A stretch of 32,950 bases of DNA from assembly GCA_964514295.1 (NCBI GenBank), contig CAZEQG010000001.1, positions 1 through 32,950 on the forward strand, given 5' to 3'. Below the pieces are notes generated by a model, which worked only from the letters and a program-made list of their open reading frames with translations, was not told where the DNA came from and ran no database searches. Shown here one piece after another: positions 3,336-32,950 of the stretch (its first letter is position 1; each line of letters opens with the position of its first letter). Source of the DNA: an uncultured Alphaproteobacteria bacterium. Lineage in GTDB: Bacteria; Pseudomonadota; Alphaproteobacteria; CAZEQG01. The position numbers and the translations under genes were made by a program.

Positions 3336-3389
3336 CGGCGGCACCTCCGTGCGGTCGGATCGATCTTTCAGGTGGCGGACTGTTTCGGC

Positions 3390-6300
3390 TTAAGGCGGGA
3401 CCGCCGTGCCTTCCAGGGTCCTGCTGCGCCGCTGCGCCAATTCAGTCTGCCTTTCGACAAGCCGCAGTATCTGGCGGCCGTACTCAGCTTCGCTGATCCT
3501 GCCCCGTGCGCGCTCGCGGTCGAGCGAACGCGCCTGCGCCCGCAACTCGCGCTCGATCCGATCAAACTCGCGGCCATGGAAGTAGAAGCCGTCATCCACG
3601 CTGTGCGGCTTGATCTTGATGCCCACAGAGGAGGCCAGGGCTTGCGGCACGGAGTATGGCCGGTCGCGCCAATCTCGCACTCCGGTGATCGCGTCGCCGA
3701 TCTTCGACCAGTACCACGAGCCCGGAATCCACGCCGCAGAAGGCATCCAAGCTTTCCAGAGGTAGTTCCCCACCTTTCCCGCCTTGTCGCCCAGAGTGTC
3801 GGTGTATTCGTTCACGATCCGCTGGCCAGTGAAGCCGGACTTGTTCAACATCAGCTCGGACGCCAGCATCAGCGGGCCGCCGAACTGCAGCCAGGATGGC
3901 ATCGGAAGCGCACTGGAGCCCTGGTTGGTGTCGAACACGTCACCGGCCGGAATCCAGCGTCGCACGTCCAGGAACACGGGATTGCCGGAGTCATCCGACC
4001 ATGGCATGCGCCACATTCGCGGCGCCCCGATCCAGGTATAGCCCTGCTCCTGCTCGCGCATGCTGCGGCGCTGCCGCTCTTCGTCGTCGCCGTCCCCGGT
4101 GATCATGTAGGCCAGCTCATCGAGCATGAAGGCGACGAGTGCATACTTGGCCAGCTTCCACGGCCGGACGGCAACCGACTTGGCGATCACCGGAACGGCC
4201 CGGTAAGTGTATGACAGGAACGGTAGGACGGTGCGCCGCGCGGCGTTGATCAACGGCGCCCGAATGTCGTAGTCGAGGAACTGTTCACGGGCCTCGCGCG
4301 CTGCCTGCTCGACGCTGTAGCCCTGCGACCGTCGGCGCAGATAGGTCGCCATGCGGAACACCTCATCCTCAAGCCGATAGAGGTCTAGCATTGCCGTATC
4401 GGCGCGCTTCAGTCCGCTCCAGATGGCGTCCAGAACCTTGCCAAGCAGGCCGGCCGTAGCCTCCATGCCCCCCTTTCCGCCCTGCATATCCCGCTCGATC
4501 TCTTGCAGCAGAGGTTCCAGCGTGTTCTTCCGGATCTCGATCGACATCATGTCGGTGCCAAACGCGCCCGCCTCTACGGCGGCCTGATAGTCTGCATCGC
4601 CGCGCACCAGCGACCGGATGCCGCGCGCCAGATCGACGGCCCGCACGTCGGCAAGGTCCATCAGAACGGCGTTCGACATGACGTTGTTCATGTGCACCAC
4701 GGGCGCGCGCGCAGTGTGGTTCAGCTTAAACTGCCGCATCAGGCTGTCCCACCAGATGGGCTGCTGCATGCGCTCGATTTCCTGGATGTCGCGCCAGATC
4801 TCCGCGCGCACGAAACGGCCGGCGAGTGCGCCATAGCGCTTGGTCGAGGACTTCTCGATGGTGGTGTCCGGCACCTTGACCCACTGCACGTCCGGGTCCG
4901 CCCAGAACCTGCTGTAGTCCGCCGCCTCCTTCCACCCGGCCCCTTCCGGCGGTTCTTCCGTCGACCATTCCGGGTTTTCGGCGATATCCTTGTAGAAGCG
5001 GCCTGTCGCAAGATCATGCGCCATCGCCATGTAGGTTTTGGCGATCGTGTAGCGGGCGTCGACGATCTCCCCCATCCGCTCGCGCTCGGCCTTCGTGAAG
5101 TCGCGCCAGAGAACAAGCTTGCCACCCTTGCGCCCCCGCACCTCCCAAACACCCCGATCAACGAAGCCTTCGTAGCGCTCCGGCACCTCCGCGCCGTCCG
5201 GAAGATAGACGCGCTGCCTTACCTTTCCGTCTTCGATCCTGTCGAGCACCTGGAAGCGGTCACCACTCGCTGCCGTCAGGTCGCCGACAGCCGCCGGGGC
5301 GGCTTCGATCCACATGCCGCGCCCCTTGAACTGATCGCCGACGATCTTCTTTCGCCTGGCTCCGGCAAGCCGCGCAACCCAGCGCACAAGGCTGTTCTGG
5401 TCGGTCTCGTGCTTCAGGTAGACGCGGTGCAGGTAAGCGCCGCGATTGCGCTCATAGGCTTCCGCCGACAGCAACCCCAGGTCGACCGCCTCCCGCCCCA
5501 TGCTGTCGATGGCGTTGCGCACAGGCTCCGACAGCTTGGCCATGTCAGCGTCGGGCACCGTCTCTCCGGTCAGCACCGCCTGCAGGACCTTTGCCTCGGC
5601 GAGGCCGATGCCAGCGTCCCGGAAGGTGGCCATCAATTCCGGTATCTGCGCCTGGATGCGGCGTTCATCGAGGGCGCGCTTGCGGTCGCGCTCGACGTAG
5701 GCCGGATCGAGCCCGTAGCGGTCGACCAGCGCCGCCCGCGCCTTGTGCAGGAAGCCGTTCATCCAGGCCATCCGGCCATCATCGCGGAACTCGGCCTGGG
5801 TGATCACGCGCTTCGCCTGATCCGACAGCCACAGGCCGGGCTGCCACCGGCCGCGCCGGTCGAGGCCGCCAAAAACATCAAAGGGGATGCGCATCACCCG
5901 GTCGAGCGGCTGCGACTCGATCAGCCGCATCATCAGCGAGCGCCGGGCGGCGGCCCCGCCAGCGCTCCCGGCACCGGCATCTTCTGCGTCCCGGCGCTGT
6001 TCTTCGGACAGCGGAATGCCGGTGCGCTCGAAGACGGTCTTGTCGTCGGCGGACGAAGGGGCTACATCAACGTCAGACTGGCGCAGCGCATCGGAAGGTG
6101 CGTTAGGAAGCCCAACCCTCCCGAGATATTCGGCCAGCGTTGGGGACGCGTGTGACGGTCCGGCACGCCGCCAGTCCTCTTCCCACCTTCTCTTTTCCGC
6201 CATCTTCACGGCAATTTGTCGCTTTGTCAGGCGGTAGACGGAGACAACCCGCAATGTCTCTCCATCCCTGGCGACGACAAGTCGCATCGCTGGTGCTTCG

Positions 6301-9300
6301 CCAACCGACTCCCTGAATACCATCGCTCTGCCCGGGGCGAACGGAAACCAACCATCCGGCTTTGCAAGCACGAAATTGATGTCGTCGCGAACCGCCTGTG
6401 AGCCATCGTAATATTCTGGGTGTCGGGCCGCCAGATGCACCGGATTGGCTACTAGGCGAACATTCGGCATGCCCATCCATTCGGCGGTGGAATTTGGGAC
6501 CTTGAAGGCTTCAGATTCGTCACGCCCCCAGGCCGCCGCCTCTCGTGCCGGCGCGGCCGTCCGGCCCTGCCTGGCTGCCCTTGCCAGCCGCCCCCGCTCC
6601 AGGTCGCGGAATATCTCCTCGACGATCTGCTCGGGCTTCAGCAGCCGGCCCCGGAACTGCTTCAGCACGTCGGCCAGGAAGTCGCGCAGGGCACGGAAGG
6701 CGCGGGCGATGATGCCGGTTTCCTCAAGCCGCCCGAGCGACCATTCGCCATAGGCGTCGGCCACCGCTTCCTCGATCTGCATGTCGAGCGGCAGGTCGGG
6801 GTAGCGCGCCTTGATCTGGTAGCGCTCGATCCACACGGCCCGCGCCCGCGCATCGAGGCTGCGCCATGCCTTCTCCGATATCATGCCGGTGCGCCGGGCG
6901 ACGTGCAGCAGCTCGTGCCGGGCGGTGGCGAGCACCTCGCTGTCGGCGTAGGCTTCGTCGCCGGCCTTCAGCGCCAGGGCAAGGAAGCGCTGATAGGGGC
7001 GGCCGGGCACCGAAATCAGGGCGCCACGGACGGGGATCAGGGACTGTCCCTGCCGCTCCATGACTTCCTCGAACAGCCCGACCTCGATCTGCACATCCGG
7101 GCCGGCAATGCGGCGTACCGCCTTCTCGATCTCTGCCTTCGCCCGGGCAAGCCGCGCCGCCATCGCCGGGTCTGCCGACAGGCGCGCCTCGACATCGGGG
7201 GCAAGCTCGATCGCTGCGTCGGGTTGCTGCGCTCCGTCCTGTCCCTCTCCCGGCCCGCCAGTCCGGCGGAAGGCGTCGGTTGTGGTGTCCGCCATCTCGA
7301 GTCGCGGCTTGTCCGGATCGACGCTCTGCCCAACGCCCCATCCGCGCCCCGTGCGCCCCGTCTCGATGTCGGAGAAAAGGTCGCGGAAGTCGACATCTCG
7401 ACCGATCGCGCGGCGAATCGCCGCCCGCACCTGATCGAACAGTCGCTTGAGCCACCGCATCGCCATCAGCAGGCGACTCTTGGCCTCGCGCCCACCGGCC
7501 GCCCACTCGGCGTAGGCTTCGGCAATCGCCTCCTCGACCATCTGCGATTCCGTCAGACCCTGGGACCCATACCTTTCGCGGATGCGGAACCGCTCGCCCC
7601 AGCCCTGTTCACGGGCCGCCGCCGCCAGCGTCCGCCAGTTGATATCGCTGATGTAGCCGGACTGGCGCAGGTAGTGGATCGCCTCGTGCCTGGCGGTGCG
7701 CTGCGCATTCGGGCCGCCAAGCGCTACATGGATGATGCCGTCGATGTAGAGGCCATAGGCGCGGTCTCGGCCAGTCGCGGGATCGATCAATCGGTCAGGC
7801 GTGCTGACCTTGGCATTTGGGGCGATGCGGGCAAGCAGGTCCGCGACGACGGCGCGCGCCATGTTGCCGTCTGTCGTGGGTGCGCCGTAGACAGCCTCGG
7901 TCGCGGCGTTGGCGCGGGCGGTGGTTCCGGCGATGTCATAGAGCGCAACGTTTCCGCCCTCGGTCTCGCGCGCCTCGATGGTGTCGAACAGCCGGTCAAA
8001 CGCTTCTCGGATGCCCTCTTGCTCCATCTCCGCAGTCGACGGATAGACTCCGCTCGTCTCATCGATGTTGGCGAGGTAGTCGTTTTCAATGTTCTGCGCT
8101 GCCATTCGGTCGACGATGTACTTCTCGAACGACCGCGCGGCGAGTTCGATGATGGTGCTCCAGTATGGTTTGGAGCGGGCCTCGTCCACCTTCATCGAAC
8201 GTCTGATGACGCTGCTACCGTTTAATGTCTTGACCAGCTTCTGGAACGCCACAAACACTTCGGGGCGCATGCTCGCCGCGACGCTTCGTGGCTTCGCGCG
8301 GTCGGTGACGAATGCGCCCTTGCGAATGTCACTACCGTCGTCCTGACGGGCGAAGTAGTTGTCGAGCGCGTGCATCCACTCGTGCGCCAGCGAGCCGGGT
8401 CCGGCGTTCTTCGTCAGGTTGATGACCACCTGCACGGGCTCAAAATGCGCTTTCGCTCTCTGACTGCCGCCATGGCCACGAGCGCCAAACGCCAGCCCGA
8501 GTTCGCCGTTTAGCGACAGCGCCCGCGATGGTACGCCGAGCGTTTCGGCCATATCCATCAGGGCATCAAATGCTTCGTTCAGGTCCTTCTGGCGTCGGCC
8601 GCCTTCGACGTAGTTGCCAAACTGCACGCCCCGGAAGCCGAATGCCTCCTGGAACTTCTCTGGCGTTACGTTCGCGTCGCGCCGCTCCGGACCATTGCGG
8701 GTACGATTCTCAGCGCGCCGCTCGTTCGGCCCAGCGCGCATACGGTCGATCTCGGCCTGCAGCTCGTCGGCGTGCTCGGCCATGTACTCGCGGGCGGACG
8801 CCGGAGTATCGAAGCCGTCCTTCAGCCGGACCACGCCGGCATAACCATTGAAGCCGATGAAAATCGCGCCGTCGCTTCGGGCCTTGTAGATTTGCAGCGG
8901 GGTACGCTTGCGGCCGGTCGTCGCATCCTTTGTGCGGTCGACGGCCCGCAAGATGAAGGAGCGCGCCGGCGGGATGATTGCTTCGAGGGTCTCGGCGCTG
9001 ATGTTGGTGCGTCGTCCGGTCGGCCCCTCCAGAGTGTAGAACATCTTCGGCGGATCGTAGCGCTTGCTGTCGAACATGCTGTAGAGCGCCAAGGTGACGC
9101 GAAACTTCGCCGCCGCCTCGATCTGCGCCGGCGGCACATCGGCGATTATGTCGACGGTGTCGGCCAGCGGGCGCAGGTTGACATACTCCGTGCCCAGCGC
9201 GCGGATCTTCTCCTGGACCTCAGCGGCCGTTTTCTCTCCCGACAGCAGGCGGCCGGACAATTCCCTGGCCACGGCGACGTGTGCGGCCCAGCGGGTCAGT

Positions 9301-12300
9301 TTTCCGCCACTGCGCGGCTTACTCGGGATCGCGTCGCGCATCAGCGCGACGAAGGCGAGAGCCTTCGGGTCGACGCCCTCTGCGGCCAGTTTTTCGTAGT
9401 CTGGCCGAGGGAAAGAGACGGACAAAGGCTCGACCTTGACATCTATGCCGCTGTCGGAAAGCGCGGCTGTCAGCCGGCGCCGGGCATCCTTGCGTGCGCC
9501 ATCGATCTTCTCGCCAAAGTCCTCGATGCGGACAGAACTGGCGACGACATCTTCAACGGTTCCGGCTTTCGGTGCCGGTACGACTGGTGCTGTCTCAACC
9601 TGCCGTGCCGACTGGCTGCGCGACGCTACTCCGGCGCCGGCTCCTTCGCCGCCAGATCGCGCGCCTTCGCCGCCACCTGCAGGTCGGCCGCCCGGTTCAG
9701 TCCGCTCGGCTCGCTCTCCGCCGACCGCTCGAACAGGCGCGCCATCACCTCCAGGGGGTTTCGCAAGGAGATCGGCCTGGGCGGAGGCGTCGTCTCGTTG
9801 TCCATGCTGCTTCTCCTCAAGCGCCCGCAGGATGTCTGACGGCGACACTGCCGGCTGCCCCAGCAGGTCGCGGCCGGGCTGCGTCTTGCCGGCCTCTGTC
9901 AGGTAGAACCTGAGATCGCCTGCGATCCTCTCACGCCCGGCCGGCTGTGTCCAACTCTTGTGGTTGCGGAAGAACCGCCGCAGGAACAGCTCGCCGATCG
10001 GCGAAATCGACCGGCCGGACAGCATGTCTGTCTGCTCGACGATCTGCGTCAGACTCCGCCCCTCGCGGCGGGCGCGCTGCACCAGCCGCACAGCCTCCAG
10101 CAGGGCGTCGGTCTGATCCATCTCGGGCGCGATGCGCTTCGCTGCCGCGTCGGCCCGCATGCCGGCCCACACGCCCGCCATGTCGATCAGGGCGCCGCCG
10201 ATCGCGCGGATATTGGTGTCCGCACTCTCGACCAGCTCGGCCACAAGGGCGGCATCGCCATAGGCGCGCGCAAGCAGGGCCGCCTCGATCCGGCGCACGG
10301 CCTCCTGGCTCATCGCGCCATCGGCAGCGATCATGCCGGCCTGATCGTTGCGCGCCACCACGGATTGAATGAAGCGCCGCACAAAGTCGCGGTTGCCGGC
10401 CGCGTCTATGTCGCCGCCCCTGTATAGCGCCAGCAGGTCGTCCGGCATTGCCGCCGCGTCGGCCATGGCCCGCTCGGTGGTCGACATGCCAAGCGTGTCG
10501 CGCTCATTGGCCTCCCGCGTGAACGCCATGCGTTCCGCCGGGCTCATGTCGCCGCCCCGGATGCGCACCAGGACCGGCGCCCGCATGCCCTCGACCGGAT
10601 ATCCCTGGGCAGCAAGGTACTCGCGATAGCGTTCCGCGCCGCCCTGGGCATACGCCCGCCGGATCGCCAGCACGCGGCCGTTGCCGCTTTCGACGACACC
10701 GTCCTCCGCAATGATCGGGGCGCCGTCGCTGGCGCGCGCGCTGCGGTCGAGCAGGCGTGGATTCAGCCGCTGGGCAATGTCATTGATCTGCGTCTGGCTG
10801 GTGGCCCGGCTGCGGTCACGCGGCTGCATTTCCTGCGGGTAGGCCGGGTTGGACCGCCCGTCGTCAGTCTGCGAGGCCACGAGATCGCCAGCCTCGACGA
10901 TCGCATAGCGGACCGGAACCTCGCGCCCCCCACTGGTGACCGCCACATCCCGATCGAGGGGGTGGTGCGGGATCGAGGCGCGGGGGGCGCTGGTTGCCGC
11001 AGGCGTCTCCGGCGCTGCCGCTGCGGCCGGCATGGCGTCGTTCGCGGCGACCGCACCCTGTGCCGCCCCCGTTGTCACCGTGACGGGCGGGGCGGCCTGC
11101 GATCCGCTCCCAGACGTCGGCACAAGGCCCAGGTTGTCAGTGATCTGCGTCGAAGCGATGGCAGGCGCCCCCGTCTCGCGTTCGGCGGGCGGAAGGGCCG
11201 GTGGCTGTTCTGTCGCCGCTTCGTCCGCCGTCGGCTCCGGCTCCGGCTGCACGATGTCCAGGGGGCGGCCGGAAAGGGCATCATCGATGATGGCCTTGCC
11301 ACGGCTGATCGACGCATCGGGCAGCGGAGACGCGCGATCCTCCTCCGTGATGGGCGCCATTCGCGGCGGCGGCGCCTCTACCGCCCCGATGACATCCTCG
11401 GCCGGCAGTGCTCCGGCGGGCAGGTCGGCGGCCACGGCAGCCTGCTGCTGCAGTCGTGGCGCATCCACAGCGGCTGGCGACGGCGCCCCCTGCTGTCCGG
11501 CGGCCGCGCTGCCGCGCCGGCCATGCGGCAGCACCAGGCCGCCAATCGTCTGCATCAGCGCGCCCACGCTGAAGCCAACGCCGGCCGCCTCTCCGGCGCC
11601 CTGGAATGTGCCGCGCTCGGGATCGTAGGCCACGAGATCGGAGGCGATCAGATTGGCCGAAATGGTCTGGAACGCTTCCTGCGCCGCCTCTTCGCTGCCC
11701 TGCTTGATGGCCTCGCGGATCAACTGCTTGATGCTGCCGCCCGTTCCCTTGTCCAGCCGGTCGAGCAGGCGGCCGATCGGCACCGCCTCAGAGGTTCCGA
11801 CCAGCGCACCCAGATTGGCGGCCTTGAACGCATCCTCGATCGATGCCCCATGGGCTATCGCGTCCTCGAACTGCTGGGCGCCGCCAACCGCCGCACCCCC
11901 GCCGGCCGCCACCGCCGCCCCCGGCATGCCCATGGCCCTGCCGGCAACGCCGAGACCGAGGAAGCCGACAGCGCTGCCGAGGGCGTTCGGTATCTTGCTC
12001 GCCAGCCAGTCTTCGGCATACTCCGGGTTCACCGGAAGGGCCGCCTTTACGCGGTCGCTGATCCACTGGCCGGCCCGGTACCCGCCACCCTCGCGAGGGT
12101 CCGTCATGGCGTATTTCTGGCGCAACGCCGCGCGGCCGGCATCATCGGCGCGCTCATAGGCTTCGATGTCGCCCATGGTGACCACCGGCACATCGCCGAT
12201 GCCGACGGACTCGGGCTGCATCCTCCGCTCCGAGGCGCGCAGCCCGCTCGCGTCGATCCTGTCGAAGATGTCCAGTACCTGGCGATTGCCCTGCGCTTGG

Positions 12301-12518
12301 GCGATGCTCATCTGCTTCGGTATCCCCGCCACGACATCGGCAGCGCCACGTCCCAGGTTTGACACTGCCGTGGTGACCCAGCCGGCGGATGGATCATCGC
12401 CGATCGCGGCATCCCTTCCGACCACGGGATCGGCTTCCCACCAGCGATCCCCGGCGGCAGCGGCAGCGGCCGGAACGATCGGATCGGCTTCCCACCAGCG
12501 ATCCGGGGCGCCACTCAC
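3390..12518 (-). CDS. giant (3042 aa) polyvalent virion/ejection protein: ParB-like, LPD/zincin (HExxH), PBECR-like and PLxRFG-like modules
   Basis: A single uninterrupted ORF with a GTG start overlapping the upstream stop (GTGA). Recognisable blocks are QPRDR...GAPII...SGNGR (ParB/Srx-like), EDFGEKIDGARKD, GVQFGNYVEGG...GLAFGARGHGG...INLTKNAGPGSLAHEWMHALDN, two paralogous TARHExxH modules, a VHLAARHPEYY...VLAKPDGW module, and a C-terminal region of about 840 aa that begins RIPFDVFGG. Confidence 0.9.
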   Translation of the reverse strand: MSGAPDRWWEADPIVPAAAAAAGDRWWEADPVVGRDAAIGDDPSAGWVTTAVSNLGRGAADVVAGIPKQMSIAQAQGNRQVLDIFDRIDASGLRASERRMQPESVGIGDVPVVTMGDIEAYERADDAGRAALRQKYAMTDPREGGGYRAGQWISDRVKAALPVNPEYAEDWLASKIPNALGSAVGFLGLGVAGRAMGMPGAAVAAGGGAAVGGAQQFEDAIAHGASIEDAFKAANLGALVGTSEAVPIGRLLDRLDKGTGGSIKQLIREAIKQGSEEAAQEAFQTISANLIASDLVAYDPERGTFQGAGEAAGVGFSVGALMQTIGGLVLPHGRRGSAAAGQQGAPSPAAVDAPRLQQQAAVAADLPAGALPAEDVIGAVEAPPPRMAPITEEDRASPLPDASISRGKAIIDDALSGRPLDIVQPEPEPTADEAATEQPPALPPAERETGAPAIASTQITDNLGLVPTSGSGSQAAPPVTVTTGAAQGAVAANDAMPAAAAAPETPAATSAPRASIPHHPLDRDVAVTSGGREVPVRYAIVEAGDLVASQTDDGRSNPAYPQEMQPRDRSRATSQTQINDIAQRLNPRLLDRSARASDGAPIIAEDGVVESGNGRVLAIRRAYAQGGAERYREYLAAQGYPVEGMRAPVLVRIRGGDMSPAERMAFTREANERDTLGMSTTERAMADAAAMPDDLLALYRGGDIDAAGNRDFVRRFIQSVVARNDQAGMIAADGAMSQEAVRRIEAALLARAYGDAALVAELVESADTNIRAIGGALIDMAGVWAGMRADAAAKRIAPEMDQTDALLEAVRLVQRARREGRSLTQIVEQTDMLSGRSISPIGELFLRRFFRNHKSWTQPAGRERIAGDLRFYLTEAGKTQPGRDLLGQPAVSPSDILRALEEKQHGQRDDASAQADLLAKPPGGDGAPVRAVGGERAERTEPGGRPAGGGEGARSGGEGAGAGVASRSQSARQVETAPVVPAPKAGTVEDVVASSVRIEDFGEKIDGARKDARRRLTAALSDSGIDVKVEPLSVSFPRPDYEKLAAEGVDPKALAFVALMRDAIPSKPRSGGKLTRWAAHVAVARELSGRLLSGEKTAAEVQEKIRALGTEYVNLRPLADTVDIIADVPPAQIEAAAKFRVTLALYSMFDSKRYDPPKMFYTLEGPTGRRTNISAETLEAIIPPARSFILRAVDRTKDATTGRKRTPLQIYKARSDGAIFIGFNGYAGVVRLKDGFDTPASAREYMAEHADELQAEIDRMRAGPNERRAENRTRNGPERRDANVTPEKFQEAFGFRGVQFGNYVEGGRRQKDLNEAFDALMDMAETLGVPSRALSLNGELGLAFGARGHGGSQRAKAHFEPVQVVINLTKNAGPGSLAHEWMHALDNYFARQDDGSDIRKGAFVTDRAKPRSVAASMRPEVFVAFQKLVKTLNGSSVIRRSMKVDEARSKPYWSTIIELAARSFEKYIVDRMAAQNIENDYLANIDETSGVYPSTAEMEQEGIREAFDRLFDTIEARETEGGNVALYDIAGTTARANAATEAVYGAPTTDGNMARAVVADLLARIAPNAKVSTPDRLIDPATGRDRAYGLYIDGIIHVALGGPNAQRTARHEAIHYLRQSGYISDINWRTLAAAAREQGWGERFRIRERYGSQGLTESQMVEEAIAEAYAEWAAGGREAKSRLLMAMRWLKRLFDQVRAAIRRAIGRDVDFRDLFSDIETGRTGRGWGVGQSVDPDKPRLEMADTTTDAFRRTGGPGEGQDGAQQPDAAIELAPDVEARLSADPAMAARLARAKAEIEKAVRRIAGPDVQIEVGLFEEVMERQGQSLIPVRGALISVPGRPYQRFLALALKAGDEAYADSEVLATARHELLHVARRTGMISEKAWRSLDARARAVWIERYQIKARYPDLPLDMQIEEAVADAYGEWSLGRLEETGIIARAFRALRDFLADVLKQFRGRLLKPEQIVEEIFRDLERGRLARAARQGRTAAPAREAAAWGRDESEAFKVPNSTAEWMGMPNVRLVANPVHLAARHPEYYDGSQAVRDDINFVLAKPDGWFPFAPGRAMVFRESVGEAPAMRLVVARDGETLRVVSVYRLTKRQIAVKMAEKRRWEEDWRRAGPSHASPTLAEYLGRVGLPNAPSDALRQSDVDVAPSSADDKTVFERTGIPLSEEQRRDAEDAGAGSAGGAAARRSLMMRLIESQPLDRVMRIPFDVFGGLDRRGRWQPGLWLSDQAKRVITQAEFRDDGRMAWMNGFLHKARAALVDRYGLDPAYVERDRKRALDERRIQAQIPELMATFRDAGIGLAEAKVLQAVLTGETVPDADMAKLSEPVRNAIDSMGREAVDLGLLSAEAYERNRGAYLHRVYLKHETDQNSLVRWVARLAGARRKKIVGDQFKGRGMWIEAAPAAVGDLTAASGDRFQVLDRIEDGKVRQRVYLPDGAEVPERYEGFVDRGVWEVRGRKGGKLVLWRDFTKAERERMGEIVDARYTIAKTYMAMAHDLATGRFYKDIAENPEWSTEEPPEGAGWKEAADYSRFWADPDVQWVKVPDTTIEKSSTKRYGALAGRFVRAEIWRDIQEIERMQQPIWWDSLMRQFKLNHTARAPVVHMNNVMSNAVLMDLADVRAVDLARGIRSLVRGDADYQAAVEAGAFGTDMMSIEIRKNTLEPLLQEIERDMQGGKGGMEATAGLLGKVLDAIWSGLKRADTAMLDLYRLEDEVFRMATYLRRRSQGYSVEQAAREAREQFLDYDIRAPLINAARRTVLPFLSYTYRAVPVIAKSVAVRPWKLAKYALVAFMLDELAYMITGDGDDEERQRRSMREQEQGYTWIGAPRMWRMPWSDDSGNPVFLDVRRWIPAGDVFDTNQGSSALPMPSWLQFGGPLMLASELMLNKSGFTGQRIVNEYTDTLGDKAGKVGNYLWKAWMPSAAWIPGSWYWSKIGDAITGVRDWRDRPYSVPQALASSVGIKIKPHSVDDGFYFHGREFDRIERELRAQARSLDRERARGRISEAEYGRQILRLVERQTELAQRRSRTLEGTAVPP
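12427..12504 (-). repeat. 24-bp direct repeat (two copies, 54-bp period) at the 5' end of the giant gene
   Basis: GGATCGGCTTCCCACCAGCGATCC occurs at 12427-12450 and 12481-12504. It encodes the duplicated N-terminal motif DRWWEADP(I/V)V. Confidence 0.9.
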
Positions 12519-27494: not shown

Positions 27495-29714
27495 CTACAC
27501 GCTGCCACCGGCAGAGCGGCCGGTCGCATCGAGCGCCGCCATCTCGACGGCAAGCTTCCGCTCCGCGCTCGCGACCTCGCGCTCCTTGACGGCAAACATG
27601 GTCCTGAGCTTGTCCAGTTCGATGTTGCGCTTTTCGGCAAGCTCCATCATCGCCGTCTGGTAGCGCAGCTCCTCGATCCGCTCGGCGCTGTCCGCCCGCA
27701 TCTTGGCTATCGCCGCCTGGGTCTGCGCGCGCAGGGATTCCGGGTCCGGCTGCGGCGGTTGTGCGGCCCGCTCGGCAGCAGCCCGTTCTTCGGCCGCGCG
27801 CATCTCCGCATCGCTCATCACCACGTCGTCGGGCGACAGCATCATTGCCTTCGCAAGCTGGCGGGCCGCCGGCACGTCCTTCACAAAGGGCGCCAGCTTT
27901 GGGTTCTGCGCGGCAATCCCAAGGAAAGTCATGATGTTGCGGGCCTGGATGTCGCGCACCATCAGCACGCTCGACCCGCGCGCCTCGATCTCGGCATCGC
28001 CCTTGATGTCCTCGCGGGGGTTGTGCTGCATGTTCCAGTCGAACATGCGCTGGATGTTCGGCACGGTCATGTCGTCGTCCCAGTTCCGCACCGCGCCCCG
28101 AAACACCACATTGGCCGAGTTCATCAGCAGGCTCAGCCCCTCGGCCGTCTTGGTGACCTGCGCCCCACCCTCGCCCTGCGCGACCGGCGGCATGCTGGTC
28201 TCCGAGTCCGCAAAATCGCGCGCCATGGCGATGATGTTGGCCAGTTCCGCCTGTCGGAGGCCCACGTCCATGACCTCGATCGCAGGCCGGTTCGACGGCA
28301 CCGCGTCCATCCGGGTGACGAACAGCTTGCCTGCGTGCATGTCCCAGCGACCGTCGACCGGCTCGATCCTATCGCGATCCAGCACCTTCGGCGGGTTCGC
28401 GGCGATTGCGGCATTGTCCATCATCAGGCGCCACGCGGCGTTCATCACCGCCTGGCTGTCCCGCATGAGGTACGGGATGCCGAAGCCAAACAGGCTGCCG
28501 TCGTCGCGCTCGAAGTTGGCGACGCTGTAGACGGAGTCCCCGCTGTCGAGCGGGTGCGGCCCGAACTTCAGTACCCGGCCCTGCACGAACCACACGCACA
28601 CCCGATAGGCGTCGAGAGGATCGGCCTCCAGCATCCCAACCATGGCGGCCTTACGCTCCGGGTCCGCGATGCTAAGGGCCAGGCTCAGCATTTCCTCGGG
28701 TTCCAGCTCGCCGTGGTACTCCCAGACGCTGTAGCGCGCATCAAGCGCATGGACGTTCAGCGCCGTGATCTCGCGCAGCTGCTGGACATAGGTAGGCACG
28801 ATGTCAGGCTTGCCCGTCGTCAGCACCTCTTCCAGCGCCGCTCGGGAAAAGCCGGGCTTCTGCGCAAGGTCGCGCAGGTCCTTCGGGGTGAACAAATGGC
28901 GCTCGAAATCGAACGCGCGCTCCTCCGGCCGGATCGCCGTCATGTCCGGAAACCAGTTCCACGGATCGACGCGCACGAAGCTTGGCCTCGGGTCCTCGAC
29001 CGGGGCCGACTGCCAGCCACCTTCCTGGGCCGGCCGCCAGCGACGCTGCACGCGCCCTGTCAGCACAGGCCCTTTCATCACGCAGGTGCCCAACTTCACC
29101 ATGTCATGCAGCGCCCGCCGGCAGGCCGCGTTGTAGCCGCATTCGCGCAGCTGGTCGCGGATGACATCCTGCATGGCCTGTGCCGCGCGCTCGGCCTCCT
29201 CGACATTGCGGCGCAGTGCGGCCGCCTGCTCGGCCATCGGATCGAGCGACACGGCCAACTGCTCGGCTGCATCGGCCTGGCCGGCCCGCGCCATCGCATT
29301 CGCCCTTGCCAGCCCGTCGCGCATGGCGGCGCCGAGCCGCTCGGTCTGCGTCGACAGTTCCGGCACCGGGGTTGGGCGGATGGCCCAGTTGTCCTCGTCG
29401 GCCGGAAACAGCATGTCGCCAAGCCGTCGTTCCCACGCCAGCGTCATCGCCCGCGTCTCGTTCAGGAACACCCGGCTGCGCCCGCTGTCGGCAAGCGCCC
29501 GCTCGGTCTTCGGATCGTAGCGGCCGTGGTACTGCCGGACATCCTCGATCATCCGGTCTTCGACCATTTGGCGCTTGCTCGCCGTGTCCTGGGCAAGGCT
29601 GTCGAGCCTCTGCACCAGACCGTCGAGCCGCTCACGCAGCCGCGCATCGACCTCGGCGGGTGCAGCGGAAGCCGATACGGCGCCGTCCTCGCCCATGCGC
29701 GGCCGGTCTGCCAT
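27495..29714 (-). CDS. portal protein
   Basis: 739 aa from the ATG at 29714 (MADRPRMGEDG), overlapping the terL stop by 1 nt. It is the large protein immediately after terL and before the scaffold and capsid genes. The family is not verified. Confidence 0.7.
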   Translation of the reverse strand: MADRPRMGEDGAVSASAAPAEVDARLRERLDGLVQRLDSLAQDTASKRQMVEDRMIEDVRQYHGRYDPKTERALADSGRSRVFLNETRAMTLAWERRLGDMLFPADEDNWAIRPTPVPELSTQTERLGAAMRDGLARANAMARAGQADAAEQLAVSLDPMAEQAAALRRNVEEAERAAQAMQDVIRDQLRECGYNAACRRALHDMVKLGTCVMKGPVLTGRVQRRWRPAQEGGWQSAPVEDPRPSFVRVDPWNWFPDMTAIRPEERAFDFERHLFTPKDLRDLAQKPGFSRAALEEVLTTGKPDIVPTYVQQLREITALNVHALDARYSVWEYHGELEPEEMLSLALSIADPERKAAMVGMLEADPLDAYRVCVWFVQGRVLKFGPHPLDSGDSVYSVANFERDDGSLFGFGIPYLMRDSQAVMNAAWRLMMDNAAIAANPPKVLDRDRIEPVDGRWDMHAGKLFVTRMDAVPSNRPAIEVMDVGLRQAELANIIAMARDFADSETSMPPVAQGEGGAQVTKTAEGLSLLMNSANVVFRGAVRNWDDDMTVPNIQRMFDWNMQHNPREDIKGDAEIEARGSSVLMVRDIQARNIMTFLGIAAQNPKLAPFVKDVPAARQLAKAMMLSPDDVVMSDAEMRAAEERAAAERAAQPPQPDPESLRAQTQAAIAKMRADSAERIEELRYQTAMMELAEKRNIELDKLRTMFAVKEREVASAERKLAVEMAALDATGRSAGGSV

Positions 29715-31543
29715 CAATAGCCGCTCTTGGGGTCGGCCGGCAGGTGCTGCGCCGCGATCAGCGACGGTGCGCGGCTGCCCGCCACCGACGCTATCCGCAC
29801 GCCCTGCGTGACCATGTCTGCGAGGCACGACATCCAGCGCCCCTCCTCGATAGGCCGGCCCTGCTCGTCGCGCCGGTAGAGGCGATAGGCCGCCGCAAGC
29901 TCGGCACAGGTGGTCATGACCTTAAGGCGCCCTGTCGACAGGCGCTGCGTCACCGCATTGATCGTCGCCTCGGTGTCGACGGGGTGTGCCGTCGCCTGCG
30001 CCCGCAGCCCGAGGCTGCGATAGAGCACGTGGAGTCGCTCGCTGCCGTCATCAGTGCCGAAGGTGCCGGCCGATACCCCCCGCGCCGCCACGGCCGCCGC
30101 GTGAACGCTTGGCTCTGCCTGCCGGCGGCGGTGCTCGGTGTACACGTAGAGGCAGTCGATGGCCGGATCGAGAGCCCCCCAAAGCGCCCACACAGACTCT
30201 CCCACCACGCGCACCGCATAGACCCTCGGCCACCAGTTCGGGATGGCTTGCGGAGGCACTGCGATATCGTCCCAGTCCATGGTGTAGACCTGCCCCTGAC
30301 CCATGACCGGGAACATCTCCGTCATCGCCCACACCAGGGCGTCCACCCGGTCCGGGGACCCGTCGCCCTCGTAGCCGCCCGCCGTCATCAGCACCATCTG
30401 GGCTTCCAGCGCGTCGAACGCCCCGACGTGATGCACCTGGCCCGCCTCGTAGCGCGCCGCTATCGGCTCGGCCCGCACGTGCTTCCCGCGCGCCGCCCAC
30501 ACCATGCGGATCGGCAGGCCGGTGCGGATCGAATCCAGCGTGTGGCGCACCATCAGGCCGCCCTGATTGCGCTCGGCGACGATCAGGTCCGCCCCCCACC
30601 GGTCGTAGGCTTCGACCACGCCCGCCGCCCACTGGGCTGGCGTTCCCTTCATCGAGGCGTCCTCGAGCAGGTAGGCGTGGCCATTCGCGCCATGCCCGAC
30701 CACGACAATGCCGGTCTCATCGCCGCCGTCGCCGCCGCTCACAGCGGGATCGACGGCGACGACGATCCGCCCGAGGCTCACCGCATCGCGCCGACGGTGA
30801 CCGGCCATCATCGGATGATCGATCGCCTCCGCCGTCACGCGGTGGGCGTCAAGCACCGCCGCAGACCAGATCGCGCCGATCGCCTGAGGCTCGTAGGCGC
30901 CAAGCCAGATGTGCGCGTGCCGCACGGGATTGTGCAGCCGGTCATAGGCTTCGGCCTGCCGCAGTTCGTCCGGCAGCCAGGGGTTGTCGCTGTAGTTGGC
31001 CTCGATCACGATCGCGTTCTTCGGCCGGCTGGGGCCGCGCAGGAGCTGGTCGATCGGATCGCTCTCACGGCGCGGGTTCCAGCTCGCCCAGATCTCCGAG
31101 CCAGGCTTGCGGATCGTCGGGATCAGCATTTCCAGGCTGCGGCTCGATATCGTGTGCGCCTCTTCCAGCCACACCCCATCGAATCCTTCCAGAGACTTGA
31201 TTCCATCGGCCGAGTAATCGGTCATCCCACGAAAGATGATCACGCCGCCGCCGGGCGTCCTGATCTCTGACTGGACAATATCAAAGACGCCGCTCAGGCC
31301 AAGCAACCTGATCTTGTCTTCGATGAGCAGTTTGACGGACTCCTTTAGGTCCTTCTGGACCTCGCGGCCGCATGCCCATCGCAATCCCGGCTGCGCCACC
31401 GCCCGCGCGACCAGGAGCTGCGCAAAGGTGTGGCTCTTCCCCGAGCCGCGCCCGCCGTAGGCGCCCTTGAAGCGCGCGGGCTGCAGGAGTGGCAGGTACC
31501 GCCGCGCGATCTCAAGGCGCAGCGTGGGGCCGCCTCCGGTCAT
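29714..31543 (-). CDS. terL: terminase large subunit
   Basis: 609 aa from the ATG at 31543, which overlaps the terS stop (ATGA). The Walker A motif is YGGRGSGKSH, followed by an ATPase core, and the C-terminal half contains the acidic VAVDPAVSGGDGGDETGIVVVG block typical of the RNase H-like nuclease domain. The part of the track ORF upstream of 31543 is an Arg/Pro/Gly shadow overlapping terS. Confidence 0.9.
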   Translation of the reverse strand: MTGGGPTLRLEIARRYLPLLQPARFKGAYGGRGSGKSHTFAQLLVARAVAQPGLRWACGREVQKDLKESVKLLIEDKIRLLGLSGVFDIVQSEIRTPGGGVIIFRGMTDYSADGIKSLEGFDGVWLEEAHTISSRSLEMLIPTIRKPGSEIWASWNPRRESDPIDQLLRGPSRPKNAIVIEANYSDNPWLPDELRQAEAYDRLHNPVRHAHIWLGAYEPQAIGAIWSAAVLDAHRVTAEAIDHPMMAGHRRRDAVSLGRIVVAVDPAVSGGDGGDETGIVVVGHGANGHAYLLEDASMKGTPAQWAAGVVEAYDRWGADLIVAERNQGGLMVRHTLDSIRTGLPIRMVWAARGKHVRAEPIAARYEAGQVHHVGAFDALEAQMVLMTAGGYEGDGSPDRVDALVWAMTEMFPVMGQGQVYTMDWDDIAVPPQAIPNWWPRVYAVRVVGESVWALWGALDPAIDCLYVYTEHRRRQAEPSVHAAAVAARGVSAGTFGTDDGSERLHVLYRSLGLRAQATAHPVDTEATINAVTQRLSTGRLKVMTTCAELAAAYRLYRRDEQGRPIEEGRWMSCLADMVTQGVRIASVAGSRAPSLIAAQHLPADPKSGY

Positions 31544-31989
31544 GCCGCGTCGTCGCCGCGCTCCTGGGGATCGACGACGACCACCTCGATGCGGGTGTGC
31601 TGCTGGATCGGCCCGCCATCCGGCCCGCTGTGGCTGTGGTCGTAGCGCTCGCGGTACTTCTCGGGCCGGCGCGACCTCAGCAGGATTTCCAGCAGCCGAT
31701 CGGAATACTCCTGGACGTGGCCGACGACGACGCCCTTCTGGAACACCGGCTTGCGCACGCCCTCGACCGCCCGGCGCAGCGCTTCGTCCTCGATGCGGTC
31801 GGTGCCGGTCTCGACCGCCTCCTTCACCGCCCGGTCGAACTCCGGGTCCGCCTGCCGCCACGCCCAGAGGTTCTGGCGGCAGATGCCGCCGGCCTCGGCC
31901 GCCCTCGCGATAGACGCACCCTGCGCGATGGCGTCGAGGATGCGCTTCTTCCGCGCCGCCTTGGCGTCCTTGTCGACGGGCTTCGACAT
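31540..31989 (-). CDS. terS: terminase small subunit (HTH type)
   Basis: 149 aa with an N-terminal helix-turn-helix-like segment (ILDAIAQGASIARAAEAGGICRQNLWAWRQ) and the RLLEILLRSRRPEKY block common in phage small terminases. It is translationally coupled to terL. Confidence 0.8.
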   Translation of the reverse strand: MSKPVDKDAKAARKKRILDAIAQGASIARAAEAGGICRQNLWAWRQADPEFDRAVKEAVETGTDRIEDEALRRAVEGVRKPVFQKGVVVGHVQEYSDRLLEILLRSRRPEKYRERYDHSHSGPDGGPIQQHTRIEVVVVDPQERGDDAA

Positions 31990-32012: not shown

Positions 32013-32047
32013 CACGAAAACGCCCCGCGCGACGGTGTCGGCGGGGC
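32013..32047 (-). terminator. rho-independent terminator between the repeat array and terS
   Basis: Minus-strand RNA reads GCCCCGC-CGAC-ACC-GUCG-C-GCGGGGC: a 7-bp all-GC stem plus a 4-bp extension, with one bulge and a triloop. It is followed by GUUUUCG and ends about 25 nt upstream of the terS ATG. Confidence 0.5.
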
Positions 32048-32148
32048 TCTGTGTGGCGCTATGGCGCTAGCGTAGCTAGCCGATGCCACTTTCCACACCG
32101 GATGTCAAGGGGGGGGTGATTGCCTGCGAGCGACCGGAAGCACTGCGA

Positions 32149-32699
32149 GTCCGCCGCATCCCCCGGCGGCAGGGGTGTCTTGTGGTGCTCAAAGGTGAAG
32201 GAAATCGTCATCAGGGCTTGTGTCCGCCGCATCCCCCGGCGGCTGGGGCGTCTCATGGGGGCCTGCCGGTGCAGCGGCCGCCCTCATGCGCCAGTGTGTC
32301 CGCCGCAACCCCGGCGGCTGGGGTGTCTCATGTGGCCACCGCCACCCGTCAGCAGCACGATACAGTTCGAGTCCGCCTCAGCCCCAGGCGGCAGGGGTGT
32401 CTTATGCCCGGATTGAGCCCAGGGATGACTGATCCCTTTTCCCGTCCGCCCCATCCCCGGGCGGCAGGGTGGTCTTATGCTATAGAGCCAGCGCCCGGCG
32501 CATCCGACGCGGCGGCCGTCCGCCTCAGCCCAGGCGGCAGGGGTGTCTGATGCTAGATGCGCATACGCTTCGGGCACGCCGCATATCAGCGTCCGCCCCA
32601 TCCCCGGACGGCTGGGGTGTCGTATGCCCCGCCCATATGGAGCGAGCCTTCACGCAAAGACGAGTCCGCCCCATCCCCGGGCGGCTGGGGTATTTGATG
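32149..32699 (-). CRISPR. CRISPR-like array: 8 heterogeneous 35-36 bp hairpin repeats and 7 unique 37-40 bp spacers (orientation inferred)
   Basis: Repeats lie at 32149-32184, 32222-32257, 32298-32332, 32371-32406, 32444-32479, 32518-32552, 32591-32626 and 32664-32699. The plus-strand consensus is GTCCGCCNCATCCCCN'GGCGGC(A/T)GGGGTGTCTNATG. Spacers are unrelated to one another. The minus orientation is inferred from the neighbouring genes, the downstream terminator and the 3'-terminal hairpin-AC layout. Repeat identity is lower than in canonical arrays. Confidence 0.55.
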
Positions 32700-32816
32700 G
32701 GGGCCGCCGCGCAAGCCGTTGATCCGGCTGCGTAATCTGCGGCCCTTGCGAGGGCGCCCGACGATGGCAAAGAGCGGGGACTGGCCGGGGCAGGATAGTG
32801 CCGCCGGCCGGCCCGG

Positions 32817-32950
32817 TCAAGCCGCGAGCGGTGCCGACCCTTCCGGCGCCGCCGGAGCGCTCGCGGCGCGGCATAGCAGGATGGCGGCGGCGTGGTCCTG
32901 GTCGTGGACGTGGCCGCAGCCCGCACAGCGGTGGATCAGCGCCGCCCGCG
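32817..32950 (-). CDS. 3' end (last 44 codons) of a TnpB/Cas12-family-like nuclease gene (zinc ribbon plus RuvC-III-like motif); the gene continues beyond the window
   Basis: My own translation of the minus strand from 32948 gives RAALIHRCAGCGHVHDQDHAAAILLCRAASAPAAPEGSAPLAA, with the stop at 32819-32817. Third positions are about 90 percent G/C. CxxCGH followed by D.D.AAA.LL resembles the C..CGh...DrDvNAA.NI terminus of TnpB/Cas12. It is too short (under 60 aa) to appear in the supplied track. Confidence 0.45.
   Translation of the reverse strand, partial: RAALIHRCAGCGHVHDQDHAAAILLCRAASAPAAPEGSAPLAA

What the first reader, a model, noticed from the sequence alone, without database searches (positions are those of the whole stretch)
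32149..32699. Repeat-spacer array upstream of terS whose repeats co-vary to keep one hairpin
Eight direct repeats of 35-36 bp start at 32149, 32222, 32298, 32371, 32444, 32518, 32591 and 32664 (period 73-76 bp). They are separated by seven mutually unrelated spacers of 37-40 bp. This is CRISPR geometry, but the repeats are only roughly 80-90 percent identical to each other rather than near-identical. The differences are structured. The innermost pair of the 6-bp stem CCGCCN...N'GGCGG is G:C in repeats 1-3, T:A in repeats 4 and 6, and C:G in repeats 5 and 8. Repeat 7 is C:G with one internal mismatch. Three different Watson-Crick pairs at the same stem position argue for selection on a hairpin (RNA or ssDNA) rather than on primary sequence. 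Read on the minus strand, the strand of all neighbouring genes, each unit is CATAAGACACCCC(A/T)GCCGCCN-GGGGATG-N'GGCGGAC. That is a 3'-terminal hairpin followed by AC, the layout of several type V (Cas12) crRNA repeats. Spacers are less GC-rich than the flanks: spacer 1 is 18/37 G+C by my count, and spacers 4 and 6 are about 60 percent. The region has no coding potential; the track ORFs crossing it only translate the repeat (PRRQG / PGGRGV peptides).
Basis: partly seen in the sequence, partly recalled or inferred. Interest (0 to 1): 0.88.

Follow-up and report, generated by a model that had tools for sequence, protein, structure and literature searches.

The report
Prophage-borne type V-M (Cas12m) CRISPR array
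The repeat-spacer array is a real CRISPR array of the known Cas12m (type V-M) kind, lying just downstream of a cas12m gene cut off by the contig end in an alphaproteobacterial prophage; its repeats have drifted apart while keeping the guide-RNA fold, so it is an interesting but not new kind of system.

Summary
There are eight 35-36-nt repeats at the stated coordinates, all different (78-92% identical), separated by seven unrelated 37-40-nt spacers, with no coding signal.

The key new fact is what lies next to the array. The last 134 bases of the window, which is a whole 32,950-bp contig, encode on the minus strand the C-terminus of a Cas12m-like protein. Its best match among solved structures is the extreme C-terminus of Cas12m2, including the zinc-ribbon CxxC and the RuvC-III Asp. 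It stops 117 nt before the array.

Read on the minus strand, every repeat has the published Cas12m crRNA scaffold: a 4-bp pseudoknot stem, a variable base, an invariant G, a 6-bp stem and a 3'-terminal AC.
- A covariance model built only from eight published Cas12m scaffolds finds all eight repeats, on the minus strand and in register.
- Homologous loci show the same geometry (cas12m, then 117-180 nt, then 36-nt repeats with a 70-79 nt period).
- Two loci with no adaptation genes between cas12m and the array also have drifting repeats. One locus with Cas4-Cas1 has at least 26 near-identical repeats.

A phage with a 99% identical TerS lacks the cassette, which argues against a packaging-site role. 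No protospacers were found.

Verdict: new member of a known kind.

The parts
32817..32950 (-). 3' end of a cas12m-like gene. Coding bases 32820-32948 give 43 aa, ...RAALIHRCAGCGHVHDQDHAAAILLCRAASAPAAPEGSAPLAA. The stop codon is at 32817-32819. The gene is cut by the end of the contig.
   Evidence: Translation. Best Pfam match is PF07282 Cas12f1-like_TNB, profile positions 41-58 of 60, E 0.0015. NCBIfam TnpB models match at their last residues. Best PDB match is Cas12m2 (8hio/8hhl), residues 568-596 of 596, E 5e-4, against E 0.15 for TnpB. CxxC, D.D and R align with invariant columns of four published Cas12m sequences. Best of 120 Cas12m homologues is P0110, E 2e-8 in that small set. The window is a whole contig of 32,950 bp.
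32700..32816 (-). 117-nt interval between the cas12m stop codon and the first repeat on the transcribed strand. It is the putative leader, and it holds a sigma-70-like site, TTGACC-17-TATCCT, at 32820-32792.
   Evidence: Promoter scan: 1 site found against 0.1 expected. This is a consensus match only. Homologous loci have 146 nt (L030) and about 180 nt (L039) in this position.
32664..32699 (-). Repeat 8 (first on the minus strand): CAUCAAAUACCCCAGCCGCCCGGGGAUGGGGCGGAC
   Evidence: (12.7 bits).
32627..32663 (-). Spacer 7 (37 nt).
   Evidence: No match found.
32591..32626 (-). Repeat 7. It carries the U.G wobble in stem II, which is a C.A mismatch on the + strand.
32553..32590 (-). Spacer 6 (38 nt).
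32518..32552 (-). Repeat 6 (35 nt; loop-proximal pair U:A).
32480..32517 (-). Spacer 5 (38 nt).
32444..32479 (-). Repeat 5 (loop-proximal pair C:G).
32407..32443 (-). Spacer 4 (37 nt).
32371..32406 (-). Repeat 4 (loop-proximal pair U:A).
32333..32370 (-). Spacer 3 (38 nt).
32298..32332 (-). Repeat 3 (35 nt; loop-proximal pair G:C).
   Evidence: (13.2 bits, the best of the eight).
32258..32297 (-). Spacer 2 (40 nt).
32222..32257 (-). Repeat 2.
32185..32221 (-). Spacer 1 (37 nt; G+C 0.49).
32149..32184 (-). Repeat 1 (last on the minus strand).
32118..32148 (-). Flank that follows the last repeat on the minus strand. It belongs to the cassette: present in the window and in L009, absent from L029. 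It could act as a terminal pseudo-spacer.
   Evidence: Alignment; blast.
32110..32117 (.). G8/C8 run. This is the breakpoint where phage L029 (TerS 99% identical, no array) departs from the window sequence.
32018..32052 (-). Terminator-like hairpin followed by GUUUUCG on the minus strand, between the array and the terS start. It is conserved in L009 and L029.
   Evidence: Fold energy -30.1 kcal/mol, z-score -2.65; alignment. Function is inferred.
31540..31989 (-). terS (149 aa). It is the neighbouring gene, not part of the CRISPR cassette.
   Evidence: PHROG 4044, E 5e-37; Pfam Sf6_terminase.

Best explanation
The array is the CRISPR array of a type V-M (Cas12m) system. It is carried as an accessory cassette in a temperate phage of an alphaproteobacterium, between the early region (not on this contig) and terS.

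Proposed mechanism. The cassette is transcribed on the minus strand: cas12m first, then a 117-nt leader, then 8 repeats and 7 spacers, probably ending at a hairpin plus U-tract before terS. Each repeat folds into the Cas12m crRNA scaffold. A 4-bp stem I (CCCC with GGGG) forms a pseudoknot with a 6-bp stem II. These are preceded by a variable flipped-out base and an invariant G, and followed by a 3'-terminal AC that abuts the guide. By analogy with characterised Cas12m proteins, the protein cuts the pre-crRNA in the 5' part of the repeat. It then uses repeat-plus-spacer crRNAs to bind PAM-flanked double-stranded DNA of rival mobile elements, blocking their transcription or replication, or cutting them if its RuvC triad is D-E-D.

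Why the repeats differ. No adaptation module renews the array, so the repeats are not re-copied. They drift independently under selection for the scaffold, which explains the 78-92% identity and the compensated stem pair.

Shown here: the array itself; the Cas12m-like C-terminus next to it on the same strand; the match of the scaffold to the family; the same geometry in homologous loci; and presence/absence of the cassette among close phages.

Inferred, not shown: transcription, processing, DNA binding, the targets, and absence of adaptation genes from the unseen part of the prophage.
For: 1. Neighbour gene. The 43-aa ORF end on the minus strand matches the last residues of Cas12m2 (E 5e-4, against 0.15 for TnpB). 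It also matches the Cas12f1-like TNB domain and the C-termini of 120 Cas12m homologues. The CxxC and the D-Q-D that holds the RuvC-III Asp are conserved (Bigelyte Table S2).

2. Scaffold. Omura et al. (PMC10442227) describe a 36-nt scaffold with a 6-bp helix ending at -3, a G.A pair, C(-1) and a pseudoknot. The eight published scaffolds all end in GAC (PMC11013384 Table S5). The window repeats parse into the same segments.

3. Independent model. A covariance model built from the eight published scaffolds alone hits all eight repeats, on the minus strand only, full length and in register.

4. Structure. Within the array, stem II is 100% paired, with three Watson-Crick types at one pair and one U.G wobble that would be C.A on the other strand. 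Across the family, stem II is 95% paired and the pseudoknot stem 88% paired; no shuffle of 500 reaches the observed covariation.

5. Conservation pattern. Invariant positions in the window repeats are the G, both stems, UG and the terminal AC. Variable positions are the 5' tail, the flipped-out base and the loop linker. This fits the contact map.

6. Same geometry elsewhere. L030 has cas12m, then 146 nt, then 7 repeats of 36 nt with a 74-79 nt period. L039 has cas12m, then about 180 nt, then 8 repeats. L031, a viral contig, has cas12m, then degenerate units, then terL.

7. Drift tracks missing adaptation genes. L037, with Cas4 and Cas1, has at least 26 near-identical repeats. L039 and L031, which show no Cas1 or Cas4 between cas12m and the array, have drifting repeats. 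L030 has five identical repeats and two divergent ones.

8. Accessory cassette. L009 (TerS 87%) has the same flank plus a first repeat with a U:A pair. L029 (TerS 99%) diverges exactly at the G8 run and has no array.
Against: - Only 43 residues of the effector are visible. Each protein match is weak on its own (E 5e-4 to 1.5e-3), and the RuvC-I and RuvC-II residues are unknown.
- No closer full-length relative was found.
- The covariance-model hits are individually weak (7-13 bits, E 0.17-6.7), and one unrelated site in the window scored higher.
- The loop of stem II is 7 nt, against 8-9 nt in all comparators.
- Within-array covariation rests on one pair.
- No protospacer was found for any spacer, so interference is not demonstrated.
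- Repeat identity of 78-92% is below what CRISPR callers normally accept.
- Whether the cassette lies inside the prophage or in flanking host DNA is not proven, because the contig ends.
Confidence: 0.85

Rival explanations
1. The array is a V-M array, but it is a decaying relic. Without adaptation or use, the repeats are simply mutating away and the cassette no longer interferes with anything.
For: All eight repeats differ, at 78-92% identity. No protospacers were found. The effector cannot be checked for integrity because the contig ends.
Against: Decay without selection would break stems. Here stem II is paired in every cell, the only stem changes are a compensated pair and a wobble, and the G and AC that the protein reads base-specifically are invariant. 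Spacer lengths are still uniform at 37-40 nt. The visible ORF end keeps the CxxC and the catalytic Asp.
Confidence: 0.15
2. The V-M locus belongs to the host chromosome, and the prophage merely ends next to it at the G8 run. On this reading it is a bacterial, not a phage-borne, CRISPR locus.
For: The breakpoint with L029 lies 128 nt upstream of terS. terS would then be the last prophage gene. No integrase or early genes are seen in the window.
Against: The 30 kb visible holds only late and structural genes, so early, lysogeny and replication genes must lie beyond the cassette if the prophage is complete. A second phage with a different TerL family (L009) carries the same junction. Cas12m homologues sit in the same place, just upstream of the terminase, in an IMG/VR viral contig (L031/L036). 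Other phage-like contigs also carry Cas12m homologues (L034/L035, L037).
Confidence: 0.2
3. The units are binding boxes for the small terminase (a pac site) or another DNA-level protein-binding array.
For: The position is directly upstream of terS. The period of about 73 bp is close to seven helical turns.
Against: A phage whose TerS is 99% identical has no array at all. Symmetric compensated changes and a wobble that works on one strand only point to RNA pairing. The units match a known crRNA scaffold and follow a cas12m gene. The same arrays occur at loci with no terminase gene among the neighbouring genes examined (L030).
Confidence: 0.02
4. The units are RNA anti-CRISPR decoys: repeat mimics that soak up a host Cas12m.
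For: Phage-borne repeat units without adaptation genes resemble the layout of RNA-based anti-CRISPRs. This comparison rests on my own knowledge and was not tested here.
Against: The cassette brings its own cas12m on the same strand, 117 nt upstream. The units carry full-length, uniform spacers, which decoys do not need.
Confidence: 0.03

Closest known systems
Type V-M CRISPR-Cas12m systems (MmCas12m2, GoCas12m, ApCas12m and others; Omura 2023, PMC10442227; Bigelyte 2024, PMC11013384)
   Same: - Effector C-terminus with CxxC and D-Q-D.
- Repeat of 35-36 nt ending in GAC, with a 6-bp stem II ending at -3, a G opposite A(-2), and a 3-4-bp pseudoknot stem I.
- Array on the same strand, just downstream of cas12m.
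- No anti-repeat or tracrRNA candidate in the flanks, as reported for the family.
   Different: - The stem II loop is 7 nt instead of 8-9 nt, with two more nt in the 5' tail.
- All eight repeats differ from each other.
- The host is a prophage of an alphaproteobacterium (PepA 63% identical to Azospirillum).
- Only 43 residues of the effector are available, so the RuvC triad type (H-D-D, N-D-D or D-E-D) is unknown.
Virus-encoded V-M loci: myxophage MV-1 MvCas12m (bioRxiv 10.64898/2026.09.14.751636) and UnCas12m from an IMG/VR scaffold (Bigelyte Table S2)
   Same: - Cas12m plus a short array in a temperate phage.
- No adaptation genes reported.
- No tracrRNA.
- No protospacers found.
   Different: MvCas12m has 55 residues after its RuvC-III Asp (D555 of 610). 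The window protein has 25. It is therefore a different protein in a different host lineage. The preprint describes one consensus repeat; here every repeat is different.
Adaptation-less V-M loci found here: L030 (P0110), L039 and L031/L036 (P0107)
   Same: The geometry is the same: cas12m, then 117-180 nt, then 4-8 units. Repeats drift with wobble or compensated stem changes. In L031 the array is followed by the terminase large subunit.
   Different: Repeat sequences are only distantly alike. In L031 only the roughly 29-nt scaffold core is conserved, spacing is irregular, and solitary units occur elsewhere in the genome.
TnpB / IS200-IS605 with omega-RNA
   Same: The C-terminal zinc ribbon and RuvC-III motif are shared.
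   Different: TnpB uses one long RNA that overlaps its own 3' end, not an array of repeat-spacer units. The fragment matches Cas12m2 about 300-fold better than TnpB, and it has DQD rather than the DRD of the TnpB matched in that search.

Membership tests
CRISPR array (generic) | Direct repeats of constant length separated by unique spacers of constant length | tested here: met
   8 repeats of 35-36 nt. 7 spacers of 37-40 nt that are no more alike than shuffles.
CRISPR array (generic) | Repeats nearly identical to each other | tested here: not met
   Identity is 78-92%, and all eight differ. Comparable drift is seen in two V-M loci that show no adaptation genes between cas12m and the array, L039 and L031.
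CRISPR array (generic) | A cas gene adjacent | tested here: met
   A Cas12m-like C-terminus sits 117 nt upstream on the same strand. Only 43 residues are visible.
CRISPR array (generic) | Spacers match foreign DNA (protospacers) | tested here: not met
   No significant match in GenBank phages, PLSDB plasmids, the window and fetched loci, or IMG/VR for three 20-mers. These searches do not cover the source environment.
Type V-M (Cas12m) | Effector of the Cas12m family: about 570-630 aa, RuvC domain, C-terminal zinc ribbon | tested here: inconclusive
   The C-terminal 43 aa fit: best PDB hit is Cas12m2, E 5e-4, and the CxxC, D.D and R columns are conserved. The rest of the gene is off the contig.
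Type V-M (Cas12m) | Repeat-derived scaffold: 6-bp stem ending at -3, G opposite A(-2), C(-1), and a pseudoknot stem from the 5' arm to the loop | tested here: met
   Parse; pair counts; description in PMC10442227; sequences in PMC11013384 Table S5.
Type V-M (Cas12m) | Repeats are recognised by a model built from known members only | tested here: met
   All 8 repeats are hit on the minus strand, full length and in register. Scores are weak individually (7-13 bits). The same model gives 12-29 bits on the arrays of L030, L031, L037 and L039.
Type V-M (Cas12m) | No tracrRNA (no anti-repeat near the array) | tested here: met
   No inverted match between the repeat and the 117-nt or 160-nt flanks. 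Sequence beyond 32950 is not available.
Type V-M (Cas12m) | Array on the same strand as cas12m, a short distance downstream | tested here: met
   117 nt here; 146 nt in L030 and about 180 nt in L039.
Type V-M (Cas12m) | Pre-crRNA self-processing and PAM-dependent DNA binding | not testable with these tools
   Needs RNA-seq and biochemistry.
Terminase pac/cos recognition repeats | Required together with the cognate TerS | tested here: not met
   L029 has a 99% identical TerS and the same terS-proximal 128 nt, but no array.
REP-like dispersed repeats | Many single copies scattered in the genome | tested here: not met
   No copy outside the array in the window. Only isolated chance hits without the repeat tail were found in GTDB genomes and JGI metagenomes. 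The host genome itself is not available.

The most novel reading that the evidence does not exclude
In phages, adaptation-less V-M arrays may not be adaptive immune memories at all. They may be hard-wired, long-lived guide sets for a DNA-binding (CRISPRi-like) Cas12m. Each repeat-spacer unit would evolve as its own small gene under structural selection, and the cassette would be placed recurrently at the early/late junction just upstream of the terminase (as in the window and L031). There it could silence fixed targets such as rival prophages, satellites or host genes. The solitary scaffold units scattered through L031 would be part of the same regulatory use.
Probability: 0.2. Interest if true: 0.65.

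Novelty: new member of a known kind. Interest (0 to 1): 0.38.

Why it matters
It adds a temperate alphaproteobacterial phage to the very few viruses known to carry Cas12m. A September 2026 preprint claims the first such case.

Together with the comparison loci, it suggests a simple rule. In V-M loci that lack Cas1/Cas4, repeats are no longer re-copied and drift apart, yet they keep the pseudoknot scaffold through compensatory changes. One consequence is that standard CRISPR callers, which demand near-identical repeats, will tend to miss such arrays. Structure-aware models would find more.

The natural sequence variation also marks which scaffold positions tolerate change. That is useful for engineering compact Cas12m guides.

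Tried and rejected
- Phage GenBank search with the array and flanks: no match.
- Strict and looser repeat patterns:
  - IMG/VR: none.
  - GTDB genomes: 3 isolated chance hits.
  - JGI metagenomes: 12 isolated chance hits without the repeat tail or neighbouring copies.
- TerS relatives in IMG/VR: none has the array. The 72-nt tandem repeat in L007 is a coding 24-aa repeat, a coincidence of period.
- Exact look-ups of TerS and its close relatives gave only short contigs that break in or before the array. The right flank could not be recovered.
- The 43-aa fragment found nothing in the k-mer protein search. It found only one low-complexity hit in the 1.84-billion representative library, and it was too short for the search for related loci.
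- Rfam: no family at gathering score, and only noise at E up to 10.
- Single-sequence folding z-scores are uninformative in this G+C-rich DNA, at -0.6 to -1.0.
- A + strand pseudoknot reading was considered first. It was dropped because the R7 mismatch, the covariance-model hits and the cas12m strand all favour the minus strand.
- Host record look-up by PepA failed. Host class was inferred only from 63% identity to Azospirillum PepA.
- Spacer searches were all negative.
Full report
**1. The observation**

The sequence holds eight direct repeats at 32149, 32222, 32298, 32371, 32444, 32518, 32591 and 32664.
- The repeats are 35-36 nt long, with periods of 73-76 nt.
- They are separated by seven spacers of 37-40 nt.
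- A degenerate pattern of the repeat matches seven times in the window and nowhere else, with none expected in shuffles.
- All eight repeats differ. Pairwise identity is 78-92%, mean 84%.
- The spacers are no more alike than shuffled sequences.
- There is no codon-position G+C periodicity over the array. The neighbouring terS has a third-position G+C of 0.93.

On the + strand, the pair next to the loop is G:C in repeats 1-3, T:A in repeats 4 and 6, and C:G in repeats 5, 7 and 8. Repeat 7 has one internal mismatch.

**2. Context**

The window is an entire NCBI contig of 32,950 bp. Its content:
- A host leucyl aminopeptidase gene at 340-1833. The protein is 63% identical to Azospirillum PepA, so the host is an alphaproteobacterium.
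- About 29 kb of phage late genes, all on the minus strand: terS at 31540-31989, terL, portal, major head protein, an amidase-like protein, and a 3042-aa polyvalent protein.
- No integrase or early gene.

The array lies upstream of terS.

**3. The decisive neighbour**

A minus-strand ORF runs off the contig end and stops at 32817-32819, 117 nt before the first repeat on that strand. Its 43 residues are RAALIHRCAGCGHVHDQDHAAAILLCRAASAPAAPEGSAPLAA. The matches are:
- Pfam: best match is the last third of PF07282 (Cas12f1-like TNB), E 0.0015.
- NCBIfam: the last residues of TnpB models.
- Solved structures: best match is the extreme C-terminus of Cas12m2 (8hio/8hhl, residues 568-596 of 596), E 5e-4. 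ISDra2 TnpB scores E 0.15.
- Alignment with four published Cas12m sequences: the two cysteines, the two aspartates of D-Q-D and an arginine fall in invariant columns. The second Asp corresponds to the RuvC-III residue D579 of MmCas12m, as listed in Bigelyte Table S2.
- Against 120 Cas12m homologues retrieved with a profile: the fragment matches many C-termini. The best is P0110, IQCGGCGHTTDQDDNATALMITRAASAPTE.

No closer full-length relative exists in the protein collections.

**4. The repeat is a Cas12m crRNA scaffold**

Omura et al. (PMC10442227, section 7) describe the 36-nt repeat-derived scaffold of Cas12m2:
- a 6-bp helix from -22..-17 to -8..-3;
- a non-canonical G(-23).A(-2) pair;
- a flipped-out A(-24);
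- a base-specifically read C(-1);
- a pseudoknot stacked on a second stem.

Bigelyte et al. (PMC11013384, Table S5) list eight scaffolds. All of them end in GAC.

On the minus strand, the window repeats read tail-CCCC-(A/U)-G-CCGCCN-GGGG-AUG-N'GGCGG-AC. That is the same order of elements: stem I 5' arm, one free base, the G, stem II 5' arm, stem I 3' arm at the start of the loop, a short linker, stem II 3' arm, and AC. The only structural difference is a 7-nt loop instead of 8-9 nt.

Three tests support this reading.
- **Model from known members only.** A covariance model built from the eight published scaffolds alone finds all eight window repeats. Every hit is on the minus strand, spans the full model, and ends exactly on the repeat boundary. 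Individual scores are weak (7-13 bits), and one unrelated site scored higher. The evidence is therefore the joint register and strand, not any single E-value. The same model scores 12-29 bits on the arrays of other cas12m loci.
- **Pair counts within the array.** Stem II is paired in 100% of cells. One pair has three Watson-Crick types. Repeat 7 has a U.G wobble that is C.A on the + strand, which favours the minus strand as the RNA strand. The covariation score is reached by 5 of 500 shuffles.
- **Pair counts across the family.** In 21 scaffolds (published ones plus units from L030, L031 and L033), stem II is 95% paired and the pseudoknot stem 88% paired. Eight of ten pairs change on both sides, and no shuffle reaches the observed score.

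The pattern of conservation among the window repeats also fits the published contacts. The G, both stems, UG and AC are invariant. The 5' tail, the flipped-out base and the loop linker vary. The 5' tail corresponds to the part that is disordered in the Cas12m2 structure.

**5. Homologous loci**

| Locus | Source | Layout |
|---|---|---|
| L030 | holds P0110 | cas12m, then 146 nt, then seven 36-nt repeats (period 74-79 nt) on the same strand; the last repeats are degenerate, with wobble changes |
| L039 | IMG/VR | cas12m, then about 180 nt, then eight repeats that drift in groups |
| L031/L036 | 39-kb IMG/VR viral contig | cas12m, then four degenerate units, then the terminase large subunit; each unit has a different, fully compensated stem II |
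| L037 | IMG/VR | Cas4 and Cas1 between cas12m and the array; at least 26 near-identical repeats |

In this small sample, repeat drift with compensation goes with the absence of adaptation genes.

**6. The cassette is accessory**

L009, whose TerS is 87% identical and whose TerL belongs to a different family, carries the same terS-proximal region. It also has the same 31-nt flank and a first repeat with a U:A pair, after which its contig breaks.

L029, whose TerS is 99% identical, shares the terS-proximal 128 nt. It then departs completely at the G8 run (32110-32117) and has no array. A packaging-site role is therefore very unlikely.

**7. Other features**

- A sigma-70-like site on the minus strand (32820-32792) precedes the array.
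- A strong hairpin followed by UUUU on the minus strand (32018-32052) lies between the array and terS. It is conserved in L009 and L029.
- Both are consensus or energy matches only.
- No anti-repeat is present in the available flanks. This is consistent with the reported absence of a tracrRNA in this family.

**8. Targets**

No spacer has a significant match in any of the following:
- GenBank phages;
- PLSDB plasmids;
- the visible 32 kb of the prophage and all fetched loci;
- IMG/VR, for three 20-mers.

The preprint on MV-1 also found none for its array. Function as interference or repression therefore remains an inference from the characterised family. According to PMC10442227 and PMC11013384, characterised Cas12m proteins bind DNA and block transcription or replication without cleaving it.

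**9. Comparison and novelty**

This is a type V-M CRISPR-Cas12m locus.

Virus-borne examples are barely documented. UnCas12m came from an IMG/VR scaffold. A September 2026 preprint claims the first phage Cas12m, in a myxophage.

The window protein is different from that one. It has 25 residues after the RuvC-III Asp, against 55 in MvCas12m, and the host is an alphaproteobacterium.

The finding is a new member of a known kind. Three points are worth noting:
- every repeat is different but structurally intact;
- the loop is shorter than in known members;
- the cassette sits just upstream of the terminase, as in an unrelated viral contig.

Remaining uncertainties are the unseen bulk of cas12m, whether the cassette is inside the prophage (I estimate 0.8), and whether it is still active.

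Noticed in passing
L031 (= L036, IMGVR_UViG_3300021363_000011): 6556, 7794, 8073, 8125, 8176, 10160, 10359, 10407, 12106, 14750: Cas12m scaffold-like units are scattered through a phage-like contig. Some stand alone in intergenic gaps, for example directly before the start codon of the gene after terL. Three lie inside the 5' end of the 706-aa cas12m ORF call, which is probably over-extended. Each unit has a different, fully compensated stem II, and only the roughly 29-nt core is conserved.
   Followed up: partly
L037 (IMGVR_UViG_3300012532_000100): 3367-9206: A viral contig carries cas12m, Cas4 (PF01930), Cas1 (PF01867) and an array of at least 26 near-identical repeats. This contrasts with the short, drifting arrays of loci that lack adaptation genes.
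   Followed up: partly
window 3390-12518 (-): A 3042-aa polyvalent protein (ddrB-like ParB, LPD5 and LPD1 domains) closes the late operon of the prophage.
   Followed up: no
window 32110-32117: A G8 run is the exact point where a phage with a 99% identical TerS (L029) switches to unrelated sequence. That sequence holds a divergently oriented ORF. The run may be a recombination junction for accessory cassettes.
   Followed up: partly
window 32018-32052 (-): A strong hairpin plus U-tract lies about 30 nt upstream of the terS start and is conserved in L009 and L029. If it terminates transcription, terS expression would need read-through or a very close promoter.
   Followed up: partly
L007 4426-5517: A 72-nt tandem repeat upstream of a TerS relative is a coding 24-aa repeat inside a 397-aa ORF. 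It has the same period as the array by coincidence.
   Followed up: yes
L009 664-2085 versus window 29714-31543: Phages with 87% identical TerS and the same upstream region carry large terminase subunits of different Pfam families (Terminase_6N versus Terminase_3). This is mosaicism right at the terS/terL junction.
   Followed up: no
L011 and L012, upstream of terS: More distant TerS relatives (58% identity) have a NusG-like gene (PF02357) two genes upstream of terS instead of a CRISPR cassette.
   Followed up: no
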